Shown: one piece after another, positions 1,334-63,554 of the stretch | Layout of the letters: each line of letters begins with the position of its first letter | Numbering within the stretch: the stretch's first letter is position 1 | Assembly (NCBI GenBank): GCA_021786105.1 | Contig: JAJYNW010000006.1 | Span: forward strand, 7,012-71,011 | Reading direction: 5' to 3' | DNA from: a bacterium | GTDB lineage: Bacteria > Patescibacteriota > Microgenomatia > Daviesbacterales > UBA10151 | DNA: 64,000 bases | Translations under genes and position numbers: made by a program | The notes under the pieces: generated by a model | What the model saw: the letters and a program-made list of their open reading frames with translations, nothing else | Told to the model about the DNA's origin: nothing | Databases searched by the model: none

Positions 1334-2382
1334 ATGATGCCAGCCATAATTTCTGTTGGTATGGCAACAGGGGATAGACTTGTTACAAACACCGATGTTG
1401 ATGTTTGCCTGGGGAAAAAAATTGGGTTCACGAATAGAGTAATGAATGGGGTTGGTATTGAACAAAGATTTTGGGTAAAAGAGGGGCAGGCAACTTCTGA
1501 TTTATGTGTTGGAGCGCTTCGACAGGCAATAGATTCCGCTGGAATAGTGTCTGCTGATATCACCAGCTTGCTTGTAGCTACATCTTCTCCTGATATGCAG
1601 GCAGTCTCTACGGCCGCAGTAATTCAAAAGAAACTGGCTTTGTCTAACCGGATTCTTGCAAGTAATAATAGTGATGCTTGTCCGGGGTTTATTTTTGGGT
1701 TACATAGGGCTTTTACAGGTTTAACAAGTCCTCTTGGAGAAAAAGGTTATTATGGAGTAATTGGCGGGGAAGTAATGAGCCCGGTAATAGGTAAAGATGA
1801 TGAGTTTTCTCATGAAAAGAGAAGAAGAGAATCGATTGCTATTCTAGTCGGAGATGCTGCAGGTGCAGTAATTGCTAAAATGGTTACTCCGGATAAAGAA
1901 GCACCAACAAATATGGGTTTTGCTTTTGGAGCAGACGGGGAATATGCAGACGAATTGGGGGTTGAGGCGGGAGGAAGTAAATTACCGATAAATTTAACAG
2001 TCGTTCAGGAGGGAAGGCTTATCTTCATATGGACGGAAAGGCAATATTTAAGCAGGCCGTAAGAAGGATGTCAGAGGTGGCAAAAGAGGCTTTAGCCAGG
2101 GCAGAGGTTCCGATAGAAGAAATTGATTTTTTTGTACCACACCAGGCAAACGGAAAAATAATTAAAGCGGTAGCAGAAAGTTTAGGAGTTGCGATGGAAA
2201 AAGTAATTGTTATCATCAATAAGTACGGAAATACTTTATCTTCATCGATCCCAATTGCTTTATGCGAAGCTGTTAATAGCGGAAAAATTCGCCGTAATCA
2301 TATGATTGCTACGGCTTCTTTCGGAGCAGGGATAGCATTTGGTGCTGCAGTCCTTCCTATGGTGGGTTTACCTAAATCTTAA
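1334..2382 (+). CDS. fabH: 3-oxoacyl-ACP synthase III (FabH), split by an apparent +1 frameshift near 2008-2031
   Basis: ORFs 1295..2062 and 2029..2382 together give a full FabH. The N-terminal part has the active-site Cys context 'DACPGF'. The C-terminal part has 'HQANGKII', 'GNTLSSSIPIAL', 'ASFGAGIAFGAAV'. The frames join at '..VVQEG / KAYLHMDGKAIFK..'. Confidence 0.8.
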
Positions 2383-6745: not shown

Positions 6746-7303
6746 ATGGTTATTTTCATCGATGAATCAGGCATCCACAAGCAAACAGGTCATTCTACAG
6801 GAGCAGTTGTATATGTTGAGGTCAATAACTTTGAAAAGTTTGATAATAAGCTTAAAAAGATAGAGGAGGATTTAAAAATTAGTTACTTCCATTGGGCGGA
6901 AGAACGATGGTTTATGAAAAATAAATTTCTTTCTCGAATTTTCGATCTTGATTTTACTGTTAAGGTGGCTGTATTTGAAAATCCGGTAAAACCAGATTCT
7001 CTGCTTGAGATTGTATTCCAGCACCTTATTACAGAAAAAACCATCAAAAGTATTTATATCGACGGAGAAAAACCGAAATGGTACGAACATAAACTCAAGA
7101 AAGTATTACGAGATAAAGGTATAGGGCTTAAGAAATTGCGGACAGTAAGAAGTAAATCTGAAGTTGGTATTCAGCTTGCCGATGCTTTAGCAAGCTTAAT
7201 CAGATATTATCATGATAATCCGCAAGAAAAGGATGCTAAAAAGTGGTTTAGTAAGTTGAAAAAAGAGAAAAAGCTGGCTTTCGAACTGTTGGTTAATCAA
7301 TGA
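6746..7303 (+). CDS. DUF3800-family protein (N-terminal 'IFIDESG' motif); paralog of 62801..63373
   Basis: N-terminus 'MVIFIDESGIHKQ' matches the DUF3800 signature as I recall it. About 55% aa identity and ~80% DNA identity at the 5' end with 62801..63373. Confidence 0.6.
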   Translation: MVIFIDESGIHKQTGHSTGAVVYVEVNNFEKFDNKLKKIEEDLKISYFHWAEERWFMKNKFLSRIFDLDFTVKVAVFENPVKPDSLLEIVFQHLITEKTIKSIYIDGEKPKWYEHKLKKVLRDKGIGLKKLRTVRSKSEVGIQLADALASLIRYYHDNPQEKDAKKWFSKLKKEKKLAFELLVNQ

Positions 7304-7333
7304 ACAAGTTCTTGTCTTTGCCAATAAAAAACC

Positions 7334-7357
7334 CCACCTAAAGGTGGGGTCAGTTAG
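7334..7357. terminator. GC-rich hairpin ccccacc-taaa-ggtgggg with an A-tract 5' on the plus strand (T-tract on the minus strand)
   Basis: Perfect 7-bp stem immediately after the DUF3800 gene. The U-tract is on the minus-strand side, so it may terminate minus-strand readthrough or act bidirectionally. Confidence 0.5.
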
Positions 7358-7471
7358 TCAGCTAGTTCTTTCGAACTTTTCCCAGCCTGGGAATTTGTCG
7401 CTGATAACTTGTTATAAACGTATACTACCACAAGTACCCTTAAAATACAATCCCAATTCTAGCTTTAAAAA

Positions 7472-7573
7472 ATCGATCCCTGTGGCCAAGATGAATCATT
7501 TTTTACAATGTCAACATTCGCTCCCTAAAAGTAAGGTATTTTTACCCCGAGGACCATTCGGTGAAATTATTAT
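7472..7573. repeat. Copy 1 of a ~110-nt intergenic repeat (tcgatccctgtggc..acattcgc.ccctaaaagtaagg..cattcggt.aa..tatta)
   Basis: ~80% identity with 41716..41848 (copy 2). Copy 2 has an extra 31-nt insertion. The listed ORF 7344..7601 is probably not coding. Confidence 0.65.
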
Positions 7574-7578
7574 ACAGC

Positions 7579-8313
7579 TTAAAGGTATTTTAAATCAATA
7601 ATTTTGAAGGTAGAAAGTATATGTTCAAACATTTCCTGATCTCTTGCGTTATTCGAAATAGTAAAAATTACTCCATCTTTTGTGAAGTAGACTATGTCTA
7701 TTGGTGAGCCTACTGTTTCTGCACTGATTTTCTTAGCATCCAAACCATCCACTTTTAAATTTACCCAGCTATTAGAAATTGGGCTACTAAAAGACATTGA
7801 GAGTTGATCGTTCTGAGGCCATTGTTTGGGATCTACCTCTGAAAGTTGTTTATTTTTAGCAATTTTGATTGTGATTGATGGAATTATGTCGTTGAGTAAA
7901 CCATTATCTTTATTCTGAGCTTCTCCTAAGTAGATAGTCGCTGGGTCTTGGTAAATTAATTTTCCGTATGTTGTATAAGCTGTCCATATACTTGGAACTT
8001 CAACCTCAAAAACAGGATAACCTAAATGAAAAACTTTATATTGATATTTAATATAAGTACTTGAAGTGCTATCTTTAGGTAATGTTGTAGGGCTAATTTG
8101 GGGTGAGTATATAGTTTGTTTAACTTGAGACGATTCTTGATTTTTTTGAGTTCCTAGGTAATATGCACCTCCAGCTATAACGATCAAAAATATCACTACT
8201 CCTACTATCAAGGGAATAAAACCTTTCTGATTTGTTACTGGCGAATTATCAATTTTTGCTTTTGGGATTTCTTTAATAGCAGTTACCTGTGGTTTAGATA
8301 TATATGATTCCAT
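7579..8313 (-). CDS. Membrane-anchored hypothetical protein (single TM 'FIPLIVGVVIFLIVIAGGAYYLG')
   Basis: 244-aa ORF with an N-terminal TM helix. No recognisable domain. Confidence 0.5.
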   Translation of the reverse strand: MESYISKPQVTAIKEIPKAKIDNSPVTNQKGFIPLIVGVVIFLIVIAGGAYYLGTQKNQESSQVKQTIYSPQISPTTLPKDSTSSTYIKYQYKVFHLGYPVFEVEVPSIWTAYTTYGKLIYQDPATIYLGEAQNKDNGLLNDIIPSITIKIAKNKQLSEVDPKQWPQNDQLSMSFSSPISNSWVNLKVDGLDAKKISAETVGSPIDIVYFTKDGVIFTISNNARDQEMFEHILSTFKIIDLKYL

Positions 8314-8404
8314 ACTAGATTAGTATTTCAAAAATCAATCAATAACGCAACTGACCTCAATTATTGTTAACTTCTTTCATCTATTTTTAACTATTATTAA
8401 CTAG

Positions 8405-8477
8405 TGAGCCGGCAGGGGATCGAACCCTGGACCAAGAGCTTAAAAGGCTCCTGCTCTACCGCTGAGCTACCGGCCCA
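8405..8477 (-). tRNA. tRNA-Lys (anticodon UUU)
   Basis: Reverse complement folds as a 73-nt cloverleaf: GGGCCGG-TA-GCTC..GAGC-A-GGAGC-CTTTTAA-GCTCT-TGGTC-CAGGG-TTCGATC-CCCTG-CCGGCTC-A. Anticodon loop is CTTTTAA. Confidence 0.9.
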
Positions 8478-40633: not shown

Positions 40634-41668
40634 TTATTTTTCCTTTAAGATATAGTAAGTCGCTTTGCCTTTACCTTTTCTGCTAATTAAGTCTAGCTCT
40701 ATTAATTTCTTAAAATCCAGTGCTCTGGTTGCTTTTGCCCGTTTAGCTAGTTTTGCATAATCACGGTCAGCAATAAATCCTTTTTCTTTTATAAATTCAA
40801 GGATTTTCAGATGGTATGGCTTAAGTTGAGTTTGGGGATTGATTCCAACATCCGGCAAGATTTTTTGGACTCTTAAAAGTTCATCGATAATTCCTTCGGT
40901 AAAGTACTCAAGCCATGACGTAAAATCAATCTTATCTATTAGTTCATAATAGTTCCCAAATTCACCAACTGTTTGAAAATATTTAGTAACATTTTTATTG
41001 TAGTAATTCTCAAAGCTAAACAAATTAAAGGTATTAAGTCCCATTTCGGCAAGTAATACTTTTGTAGCAAGACGAGTTGTTCTACCATTCCCATCCATAA
41101 AAGGATGAATAATTACAAGTTGCTTATGAAAGATAGCGGCTAAAATAAGTGGATCAACGGTATCTCTATTTGTATTTACAAATTTAACTAATTCTTCAAT
41201 CAAGGTCTTAACATCTTTTGCGTCCGGGGGTAAATAAATAACTTTTCTAGTTCGTGGGTCATTAACCACGACAGGTTTCCATCTTAGCTTTCCGGATTCA
41301 AATTTAGGTAGTAACCCTTCAGTAATTTGTTTTTGAATCTTTAGGATAAGATCAAGTGAAAGTCTAACCTTATTTTCATCAAGCTTTTTGTTTAAGTCTT
41401 GTAATGCTTGGTTATAGTTTAAAACCTCTTTTTCGCTATCTCTAATATGAGCAGGTTTTGATTTGAGGATTTTTTTAACCTCAGTTAAAGGAAGAGGATT
41501 GCCTTCAATACTGGTTGAGGCATATGTTGAAACTGCCCTTGCTGTTTTTTCTAACTCTACTAAGACAACATGGGGAAATCTTCTGTTATTTAATTCATTA
41601 ACCAAAGAATTAATTCTTTTTATATTTGCGAGGAGTTGATCTGTGATTATATATTTCTGATTAAACAT
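40634..41668 (-). CDS. fic: Fic/Doc-family protein (probable AMPylase) with a C-terminal wHTH-like region
   Basis: Canonical Fic motif 'HPFMDGNGRTTRL'. Confidence 0.9.
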   Translation of the reverse strand: MFNQKYIITDQLLANIKRINSLVNELNNRRFPHVVLVELEKTARAVSTYASTSIEGNPLPLTEVKKILKSKPAHIRDSEKEVLNYNQALQDLNKKLDENKVRLSLDLILKIQKQITEGLLPKFESGKLRWKPVVVNDPRTRKVIYLPPDAKDVKTLIEELVKFVNTNRDTVDPLILAAIFHKQLVIIHPFMDGNGRTTRLATKVLLAEMGLNTFNLFSFENYYNKNVTKYFQTVGEFGNYYELIDKIDFTSWLEYFTEGIIDELLRVQKILPDVGINPQTQLKPYHLKILEFIKEKGFIADRDYAKLAKRAKATRALDFKKLIELDLISRKGKGKATYYILKEK

Positions 41669-41715
41669 CTAGACGTATTATAGACGATTATTAGACGATT
41701 CGCAATGAGTAAAAC

Positions 41716-41848
41716 TTCGATCCCTGTGGCAAAGACGGTCATCTGTTACCAGTGCCGACATTCGCCCCCTAAAAGTAAGGACTTGTCCTGAGCGAACGAA
41801 GTGAGTCGAAGGATACTTTCACCGCAAGAATCATTCGGTAAAAGTATT
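41716..41848. repeat. Copy 2 of the ~110-nt intergenic repeat, carrying a 31-nt insertion (41783..41813) homologous to the E1 core
   Basis: tcgatccctgtggcaaag..acattcgccccctaaaagtaagg[acttgtcctgagcgaacgaagtgagtcgaagga]tactttcaccgcaagaatcattcggtaaaag aligns with 7472..7573 minus the insertion. The ORF track's 41801..42058 begins inside the insertion. Confidence 0.65.
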
Positions 41849-42294
41849 ATATATACTTGGTGTGTAGTACGTTATGTCAAGCATCGTAATTTTTTAATAA
41901 GGTATGAATGTATGAAAAATAAAAATTATTTAGCTCGATTTGCAAATGCCAGTTCCATTGCCTCATTTATGTTAGGTATTGTTATTGGGAAACTTGGCTG
42001 GAGCAGCAATGCAATAAAGGCTGATCTCCAAAATAAAAATCCAGAGTGTTTTCCGTAAAATACGCGGTATAAATAACTAAGCTTTGATTAGACCGTTATA
42101 TCAATCTAATCCCAGTCTGTTTTTAGCACTATCTGGTGAGCTATCTGTACCAATTTTCGAACTTGTATGATGGAATGATAGTTCTTTATCAGAAGCTTAT
42201 TCAACTATTCCCAAGCGTAGAAAAAGAAGGTTTTAGGGTTTTCTATATAATCAATTTATAGTAGGATGGGGGTTGCAGAAAACCGCCAAATGAA

Positions 42295-43379: not shown

Positions 43380-43952
43380 ATGAAGAATTTTAGCTCTTAT
43401 TTTATCGGAATCCCTCTACCACAAAAGTATCAACTGGATTTTGAAACTTTACAGGCCGATGTCTCTCAAATCAGTCCTTTATTTAAAACAACCCACCCTA
43501 AAACTCCCCACATTACTGTTTACTACTTAGATAAACTGCCTCAATCTTCCTTGCCAAAAATAGCAGAAGAAGTTAAGAAACACTTAGAAATACTAAAAGA
43601 AGCTAAATTAAAAGTAGGTGGTTTTGGGTATTTTGGTAAGGATAAACCAAGAATACTATTTGCAGATGTTAAATATCCACCGGAGTTACTGGAATTTAAT
43701 AAGTTAATTTCCGAAAGCTTATCTGTTTATTCAGCATATGATAGCAGCTTACCATTTCGTCCTCATGTTACAGTAGCCTGGGTAGGAGATCCTGATGCTC
43801 AATTAGCTTTTAAAGCTAATATGTCAGAATTAAGATCAATAGTTGAAAAAGTTAACTGGACATTTGATGTTACAGAAGTAGTTTTATATGGAGTTGATAC
43901 TACAAAAAAACCAGAGTACCACGAAAGATTAATAACTATTGAAGTTAGATAA
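43380..43952 (+). CDS. 2H phosphoesterase superfamily protein (LigT/ThpR-like 2'-5' RNA ligase / cyclic phosphodiesterase)
   Basis: Two H-x-T-x motifs: 'HITVYY' and 'HVTVAWV'. Confidence 0.65.
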   Translation: MKNFSSYFIGIPLPQKYQLDFETLQADVSQISPLFKTTHPKTPHITVYYLDKLPQSSLPKIAEEVKKHLEILKEAKLKVGGFGYFGKDKPRILFADVKYPPELLEFNKLISESLSVYSAYDSSLPFRPHVTVAWVGDPDAQLAFKANMSELRSIVEKVNWTFDVTEVVLYGVDTTKKPEYHERLITIEVR

Positions 43953-44107
43953 ATAACCTTATTTTACTGTTTGGGTTTCGAACTATTTTATGCCTAAGAA
44001 AAAGAAGAAATTAACTGACATATTATTAACGAACCAGCACTATAACAGCAAAATTAAATCCAGCAGTTGAATTTTTGAAAACCTATAATCCAACTCTGGA
44101 CAAACTG

Positions 44108-44180
44108 TGAGCCGGGTGGGGCTCGAACCCACGACCGAAGGATTAAGAGTCCTTTGCTCTACCAACTGAGCTACCGGCCC
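44108..44180 (-). tRNA. tRNA-Lys (anticodon CUU)
   Basis: Reverse complement: GGGCCGG-TA-GCTC-AGTTGGTA-GAGC-A-AAGGA-CTCTTAA-TCCTT-CGGTC-GTGGG-TTCGAGC-CCCAC-CCGGCTC-A. Confidence 0.9.
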
Positions 44181-45650: not shown

Positions 45651-45724
45651 GGCTCATAGTGGTATGATATGCAGACTGCTTATGAACCGCCATGAGGGGC
45701 GGTTTTTTGGTGAGAAAGAAATTT

Positions 45725-47512
45725 ATGACTGATATTAGAAATGTAGCCATTATCGCCCACGTTGATCACGGCAAAACTACTCTGGTAGATGCCTTGCTTC
45801 GCCAATCCAAAACCAAGCTGGGAAAACAGTTTACCGATAATTCCGAGCTAATAATGGATTCTAATGATTTGGAAAAAGAACGTGGAATCACCATTTTCTC
45901 CAAAAACGCCTCCGTTAACTGGAAAAATACCAAGATCAATATTATTGATACCCCGGGTCATGCTGATTTTGGCGGGGAAGTGGAACGGGTCTTAAAAATG
46001 GCTGACGGGTGTTTGCTTTTGATTGATGCTAAAGAAGGCCCAATGCCTCAAACCAGATTCGTCTTAAAGAAAGCTTTAGAGATGAAACATAAGATTGTTG
46101 TAGTTATTAACAAAATTGACAAACCTGATGCGAGGATAAATTATGTTATCAATAAAACTTTTGATCTATTTTTGGAACTTGGTGCTGATGAAGAAGCTGC
46201 CTATTTTCCGACTATTTACTCTTCCGGAAAACACGGAAAAGCAGGTCTTGAAACTGATCTTTCCAAGATGGATGATATCTCACCGGTTTTTGATGCCATT
46301 TTGGAACATATTCCGGCACCTGTTGATGACATAAATAAACCATTGCAGGTGTTAATTACCAACACAATTTATGACAATTTTAAAGGCAGGATTGCAACCG
46401 GCCGGGTTTATAGCGGCACCGTCAAAGCCGGGCAGGAAATCGCCCACATCAACCGGGATGGCCTAATAAAGAAATTCAGACTAACTTCCTTAATGGGATT
46501 TGAGGGTTTGGAACGGGTGGATATTACCGAAGCGCACGCCGGTGACATTATTGCTCTCTCCGGAATTCCTGATATTACCATTGGCGAAACCATTGCCGAT
46601 CCAGTTAATTCAATCGCTTTGCCGGTTTTAGATATTGAGGAATCAACTGTTAGGATGAGATTTGGAGTTAACACTTCCCCTTTTGCCGGTCTTGAAGGTG
46701 AGTTTAAAACCGCCAGACAGATCCGGGAAAGGTTATATAAGGCTGCTGAGGCTGATGTGGCTTTAAAGGTAGAAGACGGGCCATCAGGCGACCAAATTGT
46801 CAGCGGCCGGGGAGAGCTGCATTTGGCAATTTTAATTGAAAGATTAAGGCGGGAAGGTTATGAATTTGAAGTGGGTAAGCCCCAGGTGATTGAGAAAATG
46901 GAAAACGGCAAGTTAATGACACCATATGAGAAGGTAGCGATTGAGGTGCCGGAGGAATTATCCGGATCGGTTATGCAAAAAATGGGACTCAGGCACGCCG
47001 AGCTTTTGGACATGAACACTGAGCAGGGGGTAGTGTTTTTGGAATTTTTGGTTGCCACCAAAGAATTTTTTGGTTACAGGTCCCAATTTATTACAGACAC
47101 TAAAGGTTTGGGCATTATCAGCAGCTCCTTTTTTGAATACAGGCCTGATTCCGGCCAAAAGTTTGAGAGGGCCCAAGGTTCATTAGTGGTTCATGAATCA
47201 GGAAATACCAAGTTATATGCTTTAATCGGAGCCCAGGATAGAGGAACTTTGTTTGTAGGACCGGGAGTAAATGTTTACAAAGGGCAGGTTATTGGTGCAA
47301 ACAGCAGAGGAGACGATATTAAGATTAATGTTTGCAAAGAAAAGCAGCAAACTAATCACAGATCTTCGGGTGAAGGAACTTCAGAGCATTTTAATACTCC
47401 AAAGCTGATGAGCTTGGAAAATGCCATTGAATATATTGATGATACAGAATTGGTAGAAATCACCCCCAAAAATATCAGAATTAGGAAAATTGATCTAAGC
47501 GCTAAAGTTTAG
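45725..47512 (+). CDS. typA: Translational GTPase TypA/BipA
   Basis: 'IRNVAIIAHVDHGKTTLVDALL', 'DTPGHADFGGEVERVL', 'NKIDKPDAR'. EF-G-like domain order. Confidence 0.9.
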   Translation: MTDIRNVAIIAHVDHGKTTLVDALLRQSKTKLGKQFTDNSELIMDSNDLEKERGITIFSKNASVNWKNTKINIIDTPGHADFGGEVERVLKMADGCLLLIDAKEGPMPQTRFVLKKALEMKHKIVVVINKIDKPDARINYVINKTFDLFLELGADEEAAYFPTIYSSGKHGKAGLETDLSKMDDISPVFDAILEHIPAPVDDINKPLQVLITNTIYDNFKGRIATGRVYSGTVKAGQEIAHINRDGLIKKFRLTSLMGFEGLERVDITEAHAGDIIALSGIPDITIGETIADPVNSIALPVLDIEESTVRMRFGVNTSPFAGLEGEFKTARQIRERLYKAAEADVALKVEDGPSGDQIVSGRGELHLAILIERLRREGYEFEVGKPQVIEKMENGKLMTPYEKVAIEVPEELSGSVMQKMGLRHAELLDMNTEQGVVFLEFLVATKEFFGYRSQFITDTKGLGIISSSFFEYRPDSGQKFERAQGSLVVHESGNTKLYALIGAQDRGTLFVGPGVNVYKGQVIGANSRGDDIKINVCKEKQQTNHRSSGEGTSEHFNTPKLMSLENAIEYIDDTELVEITPKNIRIRKIDLSAKV

Positions 47513-62800: not shown

Positions 62801-63373
62801 ATGGTTATCTTCATCGATGAATCTGGTACTCATAAGCAAGTAGATCATACTACCATAGCCTTAGTCTATGTAGAAATAGCCAATCTGGAAGAATTTGAGA
62901 AAGCAGTAGAAAAGATTGAGGAAAAGTTAAGTATCAAACACTTTCATTGGACAGATGAAAAATGGGAGAAAAGGGGAAAGTTTATTGAGCAAATTTTGAA
63001 ACTGGATTTTTTTGTTAAAGTAGCCATACTAAAAAACCCAATTAAACTTGCTGAAAGCCTAGAAGAAGCCTTAAGACATCTTGTGGTTGAAGAGAATATA
63101 AAGAAAATTATGCTTGATGGTAGAAAACCAAGATGGTATAACCAAAAGCTGAAAAAAGTATTAAGAGATAAGGGTGTATCTGTTAAAAAGATTGTTACTG
63201 TCAGAAAAGATGAATCTAGTCCTGGGATAAGAGTATCTGATTGTTTAGCAGGGTTAATTAGAAGTAATTACGATAATCCCGATTCACAAGCTTCTAGGTG
63301 GTATGACAGGATGAAAAATGCAGAGAAGATTAGACTTGAGATTACTACTTATCCACAAAAAAGCCTCGCTTAA
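62801..63373 (+). CDS. DUF3800-family protein; paralog of 6746..7303
   Basis: 'MVIFIDESGTHKQ'. Colinear with the first copy along its whole length. Confidence 0.6.
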   Translation: MVIFIDESGTHKQVDHTTIALVYVEIANLEEFEKAVEKIEEKLSIKHFHWTDEKWEKRGKFIEQILKLDFFVKVAILKNPIKLAESLEEALRHLVVEENIKKIMLDGRKPRWYNQKLKKVLRDKGVSVKKIVTVRKDESSPGIRVSDCLAGLIRSNYDNPDSQASRWYDRMKNAEKIRLEITTYPQKSLA

Positions 63374-63384
63374 AGCGAGGCCAG
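63361..63384. terminator. Hairpin gcctcgc-ttaaa-gcgaggc directly after the DUF3800 paralog, with an A-tract on the plus-strand 5' side
   Basis: Same geometry as the hairpin after the first DUF3800 copy (7334..7357). Confidence 0.45.
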
Positions 63385-63554
63385 TTGTACAGGTAGTACT
63401 AATTTCTTAGAACTCGGCGGCTCACCGTCCTTTGTCCCTGCCAACTTGTTGTAAATGTATTATATCACAATCTGTATTAAAAACTCATCTCAAAATCAAA
63501 ACACCCATAAACTAAGGTTTAATGAGAAAATAAGTCTGGTATAATTTTCCAAGA

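What the first reader, a model, noticed from the sequence alone, without database searches (positions are those of the whole stretch)
7472..7573. ~110-nt intergenic repeat family (copy 1), possibly with a tRNA 3'-end-like segment
Copy 1 and copy 2 (41716..41848) share ~80% identity over ~100 nt. Both lie within 1-3 kb of a tRNA-Lys gene and beside island genes (DUF3800, Fic). The shared 5' part 'TTCGATCCCTGTGGC' resembles a tRNA T-loop / acceptor 3' end, so these may be att-core relics or a small ncRNA. The ORF-track proteins (7344..7601, 41801..42058) are unrelated in sequence, so the conservation is at nucleotide level.
Basis: seen in the sequence. Interest (0 to 1): 0.55.

Follow-up and report, generated by a model that had tools for sequence, protein, structure and literature searches.

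The report
Structured small RNA of DUF3800 elements
The two repeats are copies of an uncatalogued, roughly 100-nt structured small RNA gene read on the minus strand; in related bacteria it sits tail-to-tail with an RNase H2-like DUF3800 gene on mobile elements inserted at tRNA genes, so it is not a tRNA remnant.

Summary
The repeat is real: two copies, 76% identical over 100 nt, with a 33-nt insertion in copy 2. The functional strand is the minus strand. Each copy has a -10 box 6 nt upstream of a conserved 5' ACCGAAUG.

Seventeen distinct family members from groundwater metagenomes and Candidatus Daviesbacteria/Patescibacteria assemblies fold into one three-way junction (P1 of 11-12 bp, P2, P3). 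In these, 94.9% of pair cells are paired and 11 pairs carry compensatory changes. No Rfam 15 family matches.

The 'tRNA-like' TTCGATCCCTGTGGC is the antisense of the 3' strand of P1, which covaries with its 5' partner. It is not an att core.

In all six lineages examined of one DUF3800 clade (RNase H2-like fold), the RNA ends within about 5-10 nt of the DUF3800 stop codon, in convergent orientation. These genes sit on XRE / M78-peptidase / DUF3800 / RNA / serine-recombinase elements integrated at tRNA genes. Sister clades carry DUF3800-IX or DUF3800-II RNA in the same position.

Both window copies are orphans lying in islands beside tRNA-Lys(UUU) and tRNA-Lys(CUU). Relatives carry the RNA at the same chromosomal sites, and one of them has the complete element. 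Copy 1 looks structurally degraded.

How the RNA works (partner or inhibitor of the nuclease) is inferred, not shown.

The parts
7466..7562 (-). sRNA copy 1. It runs from 5' ACCGAAUG at 7562 to GGGAUCGA, followed by a U-tract at 7471-7466.
   Evidence: R1 covariance-model hit of 105.8 bits, E 7e-32. It has two P1 mismatches and an altered junction J1/2. The single-sequence fold has z +0.40, against -3.3 and -4.0 for canonical members.
7569..7598 (-). Promoter of copy 1: TTGATT, 18-nt spacer, TATAAT (-10 box at 7574-7569). It overlaps the stop codon of the 244-aa ORF.
   Evidence: Promoter scan, 10 of 12 matches. All family members have a -10 box at the same distance from ACCGAAUG.
7545..7555 (-). 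P1 5' strand of copy 1 (GGUCCUCGGGG).
   Evidence: CM alignment; pair counts.
7523..7536 (-). P2 hairpin of copy 1 (CCUU-ACUUUU-AGGG).
7490..7515 (-). P3 bipartite hairpin of copy 1 (GUUGA-CAUU-GUAAAA-AAUG-AU-UCAUC).
   Evidence: Seven of nine P3 pairs show changes on both sides across the family.
7475..7485 (-). P1 3' strand of copy 1 (CCACAGGGAUC).
41710..41839 (-). sRNA copy 2. It is 90% identical to the copy at the syntenic position in the Daviesbacteria MAG (L001).
   Evidence: R1 hit of 93.1 bits, E 1e-27; identity; synteny.
41781..41813 (-). 33-nt insertion in copy 2, between J1/2 and P2. It forms an extra hairpin.
   Evidence: L043 has larger insertions at the same site and in P1.
41846..41851 (-). 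-10 box TATAAT of copy 2. The only TTGACA upstream (41880-41875) is 23 nt away.
   Evidence: Read from the sequence; same geometry as the rest of the family.
7348..7415 (-). DUF3800-II RNA (RF02961), immediately downstream of copy 1. It has its own promoter and shares the bidirectional terminator at 7330-7351.
   Evidence: Rfam 73.8 bits against a gathering score of 43.2; terminator.
6746..7303 (+). DUF3800 gene of the window-type clade. Its cognate RNA is DUF3800-II, not the repeat.
   Evidence: Pfam PF12686, E 8e-12. Homologues in 4 of 4 lineages carry DUF3800-II and give no R1 hit.
8404..8476 (-). tRNA-Lys(UUU), the anchor of island 1. The same site in L038 reads tRNA-Lys(UUU), one gene, the RNA, then cargo.
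40634..41668 (-). Fic gene (SoFic-like), 48 nt downstream of copy 2 on the same strand. It has its own TTGCGA-17-TATAAT promoter at 41705-41677.
   Evidence: Pfam Fic 1.4e-18; PADLOC SoFic 4.8e-45; promoter.
44107..44180 (-). tRNA-Lys(CUU), the anchor of island 2. In L001 and L041 the serine-recombinase/RNA/DUF3800 element abuts this same tRNA.

Best explanation
Both repeats are genes for a small structured RNA of about 95-130 nt, transcribed from the minus strand. Each has its own sigma-70-type -10 box placed 6 nt upstream of the conserved 5' end ACCGAAUG.

The RNA folds into a three-way junction:
- An 11-12 bp closing helix P1 (GAUCCUUGUGG / CCACAGGGAUC).
- A short hairpin P2 (CCUU/AGGG) that tolerates large insertions.
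- A bipartite, sequence-variable hairpin P3, often with a GNRA loop.
- Near-invariant purine-rich joining segments (GAAA, GCGAAU).
- Usually a U-tract directly after P1.

The family is the cognate RNA of one clade of DUF3800 proteins, which have an RNase H2-like fold with the DEDD carboxylates kept. Wherever that protein gene was examined, the RNA gene lies convergent to it and ends about 5-10 nt from its stop codon. The pair sits on a small integrative element (XRE repressor, M78/CapP-like peptidase, DUF3800, RNA, 79-aa ORF, large serine recombinase) inserted at the 3' end of a tRNA gene. Sister DUF3800 clades carry DUF3800-IX or DUF3800-II RNA in exactly the same position.

In this window both copies are orphans. 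They lie in islands beside tRNA-Lys(UUU) and tRNA-Lys(CUU), at sites where related genomes carry the same RNA, and one relative has the whole element. Their cognate DUF3800 gene is absent from the window. Copy 1 has lost part of P1.

Inferred mechanism, not shown: the RNA binds its cognate nuclease. The most likely role is a constitutively made inhibitor or antidote of a damage- or phage-induced effector, which would explain why the protein is never seen without the RNA while the RNA often survives alone. A role as cofactor or substrate of the nuclease is the alternative.
For: Strand and transcription unit:
- A -10 box sits at a fixed distance in all 18 copies, several of them with TTGACA-17 upstream. 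Conservation starts exactly at ACCGAAUG and stops after P1.
- G-U wobbles and GNRA loops are meaningful only on this strand.

Structure:
- In 17 distinct sequences, 94.9% of pair cells are paired, against 35-55% when partners are slid.
- Eleven pairs change on both sides, and 0 of 500 shuffles reach this.
- RNAalifold finds the same fold independently.
- Canonical members fold to it alone, with z of -3.3 and -4.0.

DUF3800 link, tested independently of the DNA pattern:
- Homologues of the L001 protein at 71, 68, 65 and 51% identity were looked up by exact sequence. All have the RNA convergent and next to the stop codon.
- With L001 and L035 this makes 6 of 6 lineages.

Clade-by-clade match of protein and RNA:
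- A 42%-identity homologue carries DUF3800-IX, 54 bits.
- Window-type homologues carry DUF3800-II in 4 of 4 lineages and give no hit to the new model.

Protein:
- AlphaFold model with pLDDT 84.8. The best PDB matches are RNase HII/H2 (1eke, 1uax, 3puf; probability 1.0).
- E11, D133 and D177 are invariant and D10 is nearly invariant.
- PADLOC gives PDC-M04A for DUF3800 and capP for the adjacent peptidase.

Synteny:
- An L001 flanking gene is 88% identical to window 45698-47497, with the same tRNA-Arg(TCG)/tRNA-Lys(CUU) order.
- L038 is syntenic with window 8.8-15 kb around tRNA-Lys(UUU).
Against: - No transcript data exist. The promoter, the ends and the termination at the P1 + U-tract are predictions.
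- P2 and most junction positions are invariant, so they carry no covariation evidence.
- Neither window copy is next to its cognate DUF3800 clade. Copy 1 abuts a different clade that already has DUF3800-II, and copy 2 abuts Fic. About nine of eleven pattern-found loci outside the window lack any DUF3800 in the DNA fetched, so the RNA clearly can exist, and may act, without the protein in cis.
- In several orphans (L038, L037, L043, copy 2) the U-tract is missing and a gene follows on the same strand. That fits a leader role as well.
- The inhibitor model is only an inference from the presence/absence asymmetry. A Legionella Tn-seq study scored a DUF3800 gene as essential (bioRxiv 10.1101/2020.10.01.323287), which would fit the protein being the protective partner.
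Confidence: 0.7

Rival explanations
1. Cis-acting leader or riboswitch-like attenuator. The RNA is an aptamer-like element with its own promoter. Stabilising P1 next to the U-tract would decide whether transcription runs on into whatever lies downstream. That would be sense for Fic, HigB/Gp49-HTH or the 270-aa operon, and antisense for DUF3800, BrnTA or GIY-YIG.
For: The fold is a three-way junction with near-invariant junctions and variable peripheral stems. Strong U-tracts are present where the next gene is convergent (L001, L035, L049, L054, L056). They are weak or absent where a gene follows on the same strand (copy 2, L037, L043, L038). In L038 the ribosome-binding site starts 8 nt after P1.
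Against: The downstream genes share no function, and half are on the other strand. No alternative (anti-terminator) pairing is conserved. An 11-12 bp P1 would be stable without a ligand. Fic has its own promoter between the RNA and its start codon. The tight match between DUF3800 clades and their RNAs points to a protein partner rather than a small-molecule ligand.
Confidence: 0.12
2. Recombination or mobile-DNA site. The conserved 100 bp would be the end of a mobile element, or an attC/att-like site at which island cargo is exchanged beside tRNA genes. The first reader's att-core idea is a version of this.
For: The flanking cargo differs at every locus while the RNA keeps its place and orientation relative to the tRNA. 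Two copies flank a three-gene module in L044. Linked and orphan copies are intermixed by sequence.
Against: The RNA lies inside the element, between DUF3800 and the recombinase gene, and not at its border. Compensatory changes include G-U pairs that would be C-A mismatches on the other strand. A -10 box is conserved at a fixed distance. There is no integron integrase and no array. The T-loop-like string is only 8-10 nt long, is inverted relative to the tRNAs, and lacks the 5' half of a T-stem.
Confidence: 0.07
3. Tiny protein-coding gene. An AUG 5 nt from the predicted 5' end opens a 10-codon frame (MILVVKVPYC) that ends at the conserved UAG in most copies. The 33-nt insertion in copy 2 keeps the frame.
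For: Thirteen of 18 copies give a 10-codon ORF, 14 if the 9-codon frame of L056 is counted. L054 shows two synonymous changes.
Against: There is no Shine-Dalgarno sequence. Conservation is as strong or stronger downstream of the stop codon (junction J2/3, P1 3' strand). Substitutions in the frame follow base-pairing rules (transitions giving G-U pairs, or compensated in P1) and most are non-synonymous. L043, L053 and the degenerate second copy in L044 break the frame. P3 covariation cannot be explained by coding.
Confidence: 0.03
4. A housekeeping RNA of candidate-phyla-radiation (CPR) bacteria that merely happens to lie near tRNA genes.
For: Very high sequence conservation across assemblies. 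Upstream neighbours are often ordinary host genes.
Against: Only one of 185,579 species genomes matched the 19-base core. The RNA travels with an integrative element to different tRNA targets, Lys and Gly. Degenerate copies exist (copy 1; L044 2814-2888). There are two copies in 64 kb, both in low-GC island DNA.
Confidence: 0.03

Closest known systems
DUF3800-IX RNA (Rfam RF02968; Weinberg et al. 2017, PMC5737381)
   Same: It occupies the identical position: convergent to a DUF3800 gene and next to its stop codon (L061), in a protein clade 42% identical to the one that carries the new RNA. The architecture is the same: a closing helix, two internal hairpins, a GAA-rich first junction, and then a U-tract. 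The P2 stems even look alike (GU.CC...GG.GC), and both contain CCGAAU.
   Different: There is no detectable sequence or model similarity: no Rfam hit with E below 10 on the copies. The new RNA is about 30 nt longer. It has a conserved single-stranded 5' tail ACCGAAU, a GCGAAU second junction and a bipartite P3. Homology is possible but was not shown.
DUF3800-II RNA (Rfam RF02961)
   Same: It is present twice in this window (7348-7415 and 63379-63452), each convergent to a DUF3800 gene. It is a three-way junction with its own promoter and terminator. One copy lies in tandem with repeat copy 1. A shared flank element suggests that the two RNA genes are interchangeable cassettes.
   Different: It has a different sequence and different junctions (GACAAA), and it is the cognate of a different DUF3800 clade.
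Type III toxin-antitoxin RNA antitoxins (ToxI/ToxN and relatives; from general knowledge)
   Same: It would work like one if the inhibitor model is right: a small structured RNA encoded beside a nuclease on mobile or defence DNA, with the RNA able to persist alone.
   Different: The RNA is a single unit rather than tandem repeats. It is convergent rather than upstream and co-directional. The partner has an RNase H2-like fold, not a ToxN/AbiQ fold. No toxicity data exist.
tRNA-gene att sites of integrative elements
   Same: The elements that carry the RNA do integrate at the 3' ends of tRNA genes, and both window copies lie in tRNA-Lys islands.
   Different: The repeat is cargo inside the element, not the duplicated tRNA end. 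The T-loop-like string is an antisense helix strand.

Membership tests
DUF3800-associated structured RNAs (Weinberg 2017 collection, motifs I-XI) | Conserved secondary structure supported by covariation | tested here: met
   94.9% of cells paired; 11 pairs with changes on both sides; 0 of 500 shuffles reach this. RNAalifold gives the same fold.
DUF3800-associated structured RNAs (Weinberg 2017 collection, motifs I-XI) | Recurrent genomic association with DUF3800 (PF12686) genes | tested here: met
   For the family, 6 of 6 lineages of one DUF3800 clade have the RNA convergent and within about 5-10 nt of the stop codon. For the two window copies the result is only indirect: copy 1 is 160 nt from a DUF3800 gene of another clade, and copy 2 has none nearby.
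DUF3800-associated structured RNAs (Weinberg 2017 collection, motifs I-XI) | Match to one of the published motif models held in Rfam | tested here: not met
   No Rfam 15 family matches at E up to 10 on copy 1 or copy 2, or at E up to 1 on five other members. DUF3800-II and DUF3800-IX were detected in the same runs. This is therefore a new motif. Whether all 11 published motifs are in Rfam rests on my recollection.
tRNA or tRNA-derived att core | Cloverleaf, or a tRNA 3'-half, recognisable by tRNA models | tested here: not met
   ARAGORN finds only the three true tRNAs. The Rfam tRNA model gives no hit at E up to 10 in either region.
tRNA or tRNA-derived att core | Direct repeat of the adjacent tRNA's 3' end bounding the island | tested here: not met
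   The similar string (TCGATCCC..TG) is on the opposite strand to both tRNA-Lys genes. It is a covarying helix strand.
Type III toxin-antitoxin antitoxin RNA | Tandem array of short repeats upstream of, and co-directional with, an endoribonuclease toxin | tested here: not met
   No tandem repeat lies within either copy. Each RNA is a single model hit, and the geometry is convergent.
Riboswitch / cis-regulatory leader | Consistent position in the 5' UTR of functionally related genes | tested here: not met
   Downstream neighbours are Fic, Gp49-HTH, unknown genes, UvrA, or convergent DUF3800, BrnA and GIY-YIG.
Riboswitch / cis-regulatory leader | Ligand-dependent structural switch | not testable with these tools
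   This needs in-line probing or reporter assays.
Known self-cleaving ribozymes (hammerhead, twister, pistol, hatchet and others) | Match to the family model or catalytic core | tested here: not met
   No Rfam hit. The junction sequences do not fit the hammerhead core by inspection.

The most novel reading that the evidence does not exclude
The RNA and its RNase H2-like DUF3800 partner form a new kind of RNA-protein toxin-antidote or defence module. A CapH/CapP-like repressor-protease pair would induce the nuclease on DNA damage or phage attack, and the constitutively made three-way-junction RNA would hold it in check. The many orphan RNA copies in tRNA-linked islands, including both copies here, would be retained as antidotes (anti-addiction or immunity) against incoming elements. 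This would also give a function to the whole unexplained set of DUF3800 RNA motifs.
Probability: 0.2. Interest if true: 0.75.

Novelty: new member of a known kind. Interest (0 to 1): 0.5.

Why it matters
Structured RNAs associated with DUF3800 were described in 2017 as eleven unrelated-looking motifs with no functional hypothesis, and the held literature still offers none. This finding adds a twelfth motif, from candidate-phyla-radiation bacteria.

More usefully, it adds three constraints:
1. Each DUF3800 clade has its own RNA in one fixed convergent geometry, which points to a co-evolving RNA-protein pair.
2. The partner has an RNase H2-like fold with its catalytic carboxylates intact, and it sits behind a CapH/CapP-like regulator on tRNA-integrating serine-recombinase elements.
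3. In the clades examined the protein gene always had its cognate RNA beside it, while this RNA frequently survives alone.

Together these make an antidote or cofactor model directly testable. For annotating this genome, the result replaces two spurious ORFs with sRNA genes and explains two tRNA-Lys islands.

Tried and rejected
Searches that found nothing or only chance hits:
- Rfam at gathering and at permissive thresholds found nothing for the repeat.
- The first genome-collection scan, with a 19-base core, gave one true hit (L001) and one chance hit (L002, a terminator hairpin).
- Two scans of viral contigs gave nothing or only chance matches (L003-L031).
- Phage and plasmid BLAST found no match.

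Structural ideas corrected or dropped:
- My first by-eye P1 (UGAUCCU/GGGAUCG) was mis-registered. The 11-bp helix GAUCCUUGUGG/CCACAGGGAUC replaced it.
- An alternative hairpin UGAAAGUA/UACUUUUA that competes with P2 is not conserved (L049, L037, L053).
- A pseudoknot involving the 5' tail was looked for by eye and not found.
- Hammerhead-like junctions were rejected by inspection.

Other points:
- Single-sequence folding of the two window copies is unconvincing (z +0.7/+0.4 for copy 1 and -3.0/-1.2 for copy 2, depending on the ends chosen). The structure rests on the family, not on these two copies.
- The 10-codon ORF was considered and rejected.
- tblastn and an HMM found no cognate-type DUF3800 in the window or in the orphan loci.
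- The Weinberg 2017 supplement and one 2026 preprint that mentions DUF3800 are not held.

Full report
**1. Observation**

The repeat exists as described. Copy 1 (7472-7573) and copy 2 (41716-41848) align over their whole length, and copy 2 has one 33-nt insertion. They are 76% identical over 100 aligned positions. The 22-nt core occurs exactly twice in the window and never in 100 shuffles. A covariance model built later finds only these two places in the window (105.8 and 93.1 bits; next best 10.6). The flanking genes are unrelated, so this is nucleotide-level conservation and not a pair of homologous UTRs.

**2. Strand and transcription unit**

On the minus strand both copies begin with ACCGAAUG, and a TATAAT box ends 6 nt upstream (7574-7569 and 41851-41846).
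- Copy 1 has TTGATT 18 nt further up.
- All 18 family copies retrieved show the same layout: a -10 box (often TGnTAnAnT, several with TTGACA-17), a non-conserved 6-7 nt discriminator, then ACC(G)AAUG.
- Conservation stops after ...CCACAGGGAUCG, which in many copies is followed by a U-tract.
- The unit under selection is therefore the predicted transcript itself.
- Transcription was not measured.

**3. Relatives and structure**

One scan of species genomes found a true homologue in a Candidatus Daviesbacteria MAG (L001). One metagenome scan found 13 loci, all true and 10 of them distinct.

The sequences fold into a three-way junction:
- P1 is 11-12 bp (GAUCCUUGUGG/CCACAGGGAUC) and closes the molecule.
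- J1/2 is (U)GAAA.
- P2 is CCUU/AGGG, possibly extended by G-C and U-G pairs.
- J2/3 is GCGAAU.
- P3 is bipartite with a conserved U-U mismatch, a 2-nt bulge and variable loops, often GNRA.
- J3/1 is about 3 nt.

On 17 distinct sequences, 94.9% of pair cells are standard pairs, against 35-55% when partners are slid by 1-3 columns. Eleven of 24 pairs carry changes on both sides, and no shuffle in 500 reaches the observed values (the 13-sequence version is). The extra sequences were aligned to the model, which favours it somewhat. However, RNAalifold on a MAFFT alignment predicts the same three helices unprompted, and canonical members fold into it alone with z of -3.3 and -4.0.

P1 covariation appears only in the more distant members: G-C to A-U in L049, U-A to G-C in L053, C-G to U-A in L054 and L056. 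Many one-sided changes are G-U wobbles that would be C-A mismatches on the other strand, which fixes the strand and argues for RNA rather than a DNA hairpin.

Large insertions occur where a fold tolerates them. Copy 2 has 33 nt before P2. L043 has about 57 nt at the same site and about 32 nt at the inner end of P1, and each insertion can form its own hairpin.

**4. The tRNA-like segment**

TTCGATCCCTGTGGC is the + strand complement of the P1 3' strand, which pairs and covaries with the 5' strand roughly 70 nt away.
- It shares only TCGATCCC..TG with the T-arm of tRNA-Lys(UUU).
- It lacks the 5' half of a T-stem.
- It is inverted relative to both tRNA-Lys genes.
- Neither ARAGORN nor the Rfam tRNA model recognises it.

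The att-core reading is rejected.

**5. Not a catalogued RNA**

No Rfam 15 family matches either copy at E up to 10, and none matches five other members at E up to 1. The same runs did detect DUF3800-II and DUF3800-IX nearby. Phage, plasmid and viral-contig collections have no copy. The held literature has no functional study of DUF3800 RNAs.

**6. Association with DUF3800**

Directly beside copy 1 lies a DUF3800-II RNA (7348-7415, minus strand, 73.8 bits), convergent to a DUF3800 gene (6746-7303). A second DUF3800/DUF3800-II pair lies at 62801-63452.

In L001 and L035 the new RNA itself is convergent to a DUF3800 gene of a different clade and ends a few nucleotides from its stop codon.

I tested this link without using the RNA sequence. 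Homologues of the L001 protein were collected, and four of them (71, 68, 65 and 51% identity) were located by exact sequence. All four have the RNA in the same place and orientation, scoring 104.6, 98.7, 78.1 and 30.1 bits.

Other homologues behave as follows:
- One at 42% identity has DUF3800-IX there instead (54.1 bits).
- Two at 36-39% have a DUF3800-IX-like three-way junction below Rfam's threshold.
- Homologues of the window's own DUF3800 (57-86% identity, four lineages) all have DUF3800-II and never the new RNA.

So each DUF3800 clade has its own convergent small RNA. The repeat family is the cognate of the L001-type clade.

**7. The element and the window's islands**

The linked loci share this order: XRE-type HTH, M78 peptidase, DUF3800, the RNA (opposite strand), a 79-aa ORF (absent in L001 and L035), and a large serine recombinase whose 3' end meets a tRNA gene. 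That tRNA is tRNA-Gly in L049, L053 and L054, and tRNA-Lys(CUU) in L001 and L041.

Two comparisons tie these loci to the window:
- L001 is syntenic with the window. Its 628-aa gene is 88% identical to 45698-47497, and the tRNA-Arg(TCG)/tRNA-Lys(CUU) order is the same. Where L001 has the element, the window has LigT, a 347-aa ORF, RNA copy 2 and a SoFic-like Fic gene. Copy 2 is 90% identical to the L001 RNA.
- L038 is syntenic with window 8.8-15 kb. Beside tRNA-Lys(UUU) it has a kinase gene, the RNA and two unknown genes. The window has a 244-aa ORF, copy 1, DUF3800-II and DUF3800 at that site.

In every case the RNA points the same way as the tRNA. Both window copies therefore sit in tRNA-Lys islands that in relatives hold the same RNA, once with the full element. 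In the window they lack the cognate protein.

**8. Orphan copies**

About nine of the eleven distinct pattern-found loci outside the window have no DUF3800 in the DNA available. Two or three of these contigs are too short on the relevant side to be sure.

Their neighbours are typical island genes:
- Gp49/HigB-HTH modules
- BrnA/BrnT
- GIY-YIG and Bro-N
- a GNAT acetyltransferase
- DUF1877
- unknown genes

Some orphans are decaying:
- L044 has a second copy that lacks P2 (25 bits).
- Window copy 1 has two P1 mismatches and two changes in an otherwise invariant junction, and it does not fold better than shuffles.
- Copy 2 keeps P2, P3 and most of P1.

**9. The partner protein**

An AlphaFold model of the L001-type protein (pLDDT 84.8, pTM 0.85) matches RNase HII/H2 best (1eke, 1uax and 3puf; probability 1.0; TM about 0.5).
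- E11, D133 and D177 are invariant and D10 is nearly invariant across 45 sequences. This fits the DEDD site and the published RNase H-like assignments (PMC7736814, PMC10910872).
- PADLOC places the protein in candidate system PDC-M04A and the adjacent peptidase in capP.

**10. How it most likely works**

Shown:
- a conserved, independently promoted structured RNA;
- a clade-specific, fixed-geometry linkage to an RNase H2-like gene on tRNA-integrating elements;
- orphan copies.

Inferred:
- The RNA and protein interact physically. Co-diversification and the replacement of one RNA by another at the same spot argue for this.
- I favour the RNA acting as a constitutive inhibitor or antidote of an inducible nuclease. 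In the lineages I examined, the DUF3800 gene always had its cognate RNA beside it, while the RNA often persists alone. That is the decay pattern expected of antidotes, and the operon sits behind a CapH/CapP-like damage-responsive regulator.
- A cofactor or substrate role fits the linkage equally well, but it explains intact orphans less well.
- The essentiality of a Legionella DUF3800 gene in Tn-seq is a caution about which partner is the protective one.

**11. Rivals**

- The attenuator/leader model draws on the correlation between U-tract strength and the orientation of the next gene. It lacks a common regulon or a conserved alternative fold.
- The recombination-site model is contradicted by the RNA's internal position in the element and by RNA-type covariation.
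- The 10-codon ORF is explained by helix constraints.
- A housekeeping role is contradicted by rarity, mobility and decay.

**12. Classification**

This is a new motif, a twelfth, within the heterogeneous known collection of DUF3800-associated RNAs. It is closest in position and architecture to DUF3800-IX and DUF3800-II, possibly by common descent, but it does not match their models.

Noticed in passing
window 7348-7415 (-) and 63379-63452 (-): Two DUF3800-II RNAs (RF02961; 73.8 and 55.5 bits). Each is convergent to a DUF3800 gene (6746-7303 and 62801-63372) and has its own promoter. The first shares a bidirectional terminator (7330-7351) with the protein gene.
   Followed up: yes
window 7300-7330 (+); also L068-L071 ~1797, L042 1120, L037 1034, L044 1060, L043 541: A conserved element of about 30 nt, ATGAACAAGTTCTTG-N3-YGCSAATAAA, on the strand opposite the RNA. 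It lies just beyond the 3' end of either DUF3800-II (window, L068) or the new RNA (L042, L037, L043), and is partial next to copy 2. It contains a small UUGC-GAA-GCAA hairpin and a GAACAAGUUC palindrome, and it opens a short MNKFL... frame. L042 looks like window locus 1 with the terminator, DUF3800-II and promoter block removed, as if the RNA genes were swappable cassettes. Its function is unknown.
   Followed up: partly
window 41670-41700: Tandem repeat TAGACGATTAT x 2.8 between RNA copy 2 and the Fic start codon. It lies inside a TTGCGA-17-TATAAT promoter whose -10 box ends only 8 nt before the ATG. This suggests an operator and a nearly leaderless Fic mRNA.
   Followed up: no
window 40634-41668 (-): The Fic protein matches the SoFic anti-phage defence model (PADLOC 4.8e-45). 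A LigT-like 2'-5' RNA ligase gene (43380-43952) lies in the same tRNA-Lys(CUU) island.
   Followed up: partly
L044 2814-2888 (+): A second, degenerate copy of the RNA that lacks the P2 domain but keeps a TATATAAT promoter. It lies 1.8 kb downstream of an intact copy and is convergent to BrnA/BrnT. The 3' flank is the same as in L039.
   Followed up: partly
L043 346-532 (+): A family member with two large insertions: about 32 nt at the inner end of P1 and about 57 nt at the P2 site. Each can form one or two extra hairpins. Window copy 2 uses the same P2 insertion site.
   Followed up: partly
L057 ~2135-2205 (-), L059 ~2130-2200 (-): Convergent three-way-junction RNAs directly after DUF3800 genes of Patescibacteria and Elusimicrobia. 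They resemble DUF3800-IX (AAUAGUC...GCGU...UAAG) but did not reach E 0.1 against Rfam. They are probably an unmodelled IX variant.
   Followed up: partly
L033 1162-1215, L034 ~140-190, L036 3559-3605: Three orphan copies share a further conserved 3' flank that contains a perfect AUGCAU-ACUU-AUGCAU hairpin followed by UUUUUAG.CCUAAAGCAUAAAC. L040 has a related flank. Its meaning is unknown.
   Followed up: no
window 7538-7555 and all family copies: A 10-codon frame (MILVVKVPYC or variants) starts at the AUG 5 nt from the predicted 5' end and stops at the UAG of P2. The 33-nt insertion in copy 2 keeps it in frame. I judge it a by-product of helix conservation, but translation is not excluded.
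   Followed up: partly
window 1-64000: The window is found in NCBI assembly GCA_027424735.1 (contig DAIBWZ010000044.1). Its closest relatives among the retrieved loci are Candidatus Daviesbacteria MAGs. GC content dips to about 0.35 at both RNA-bearing islands (6-8 kb and 40-44 kb) and at 62-64 kb.
   Followed up: partly
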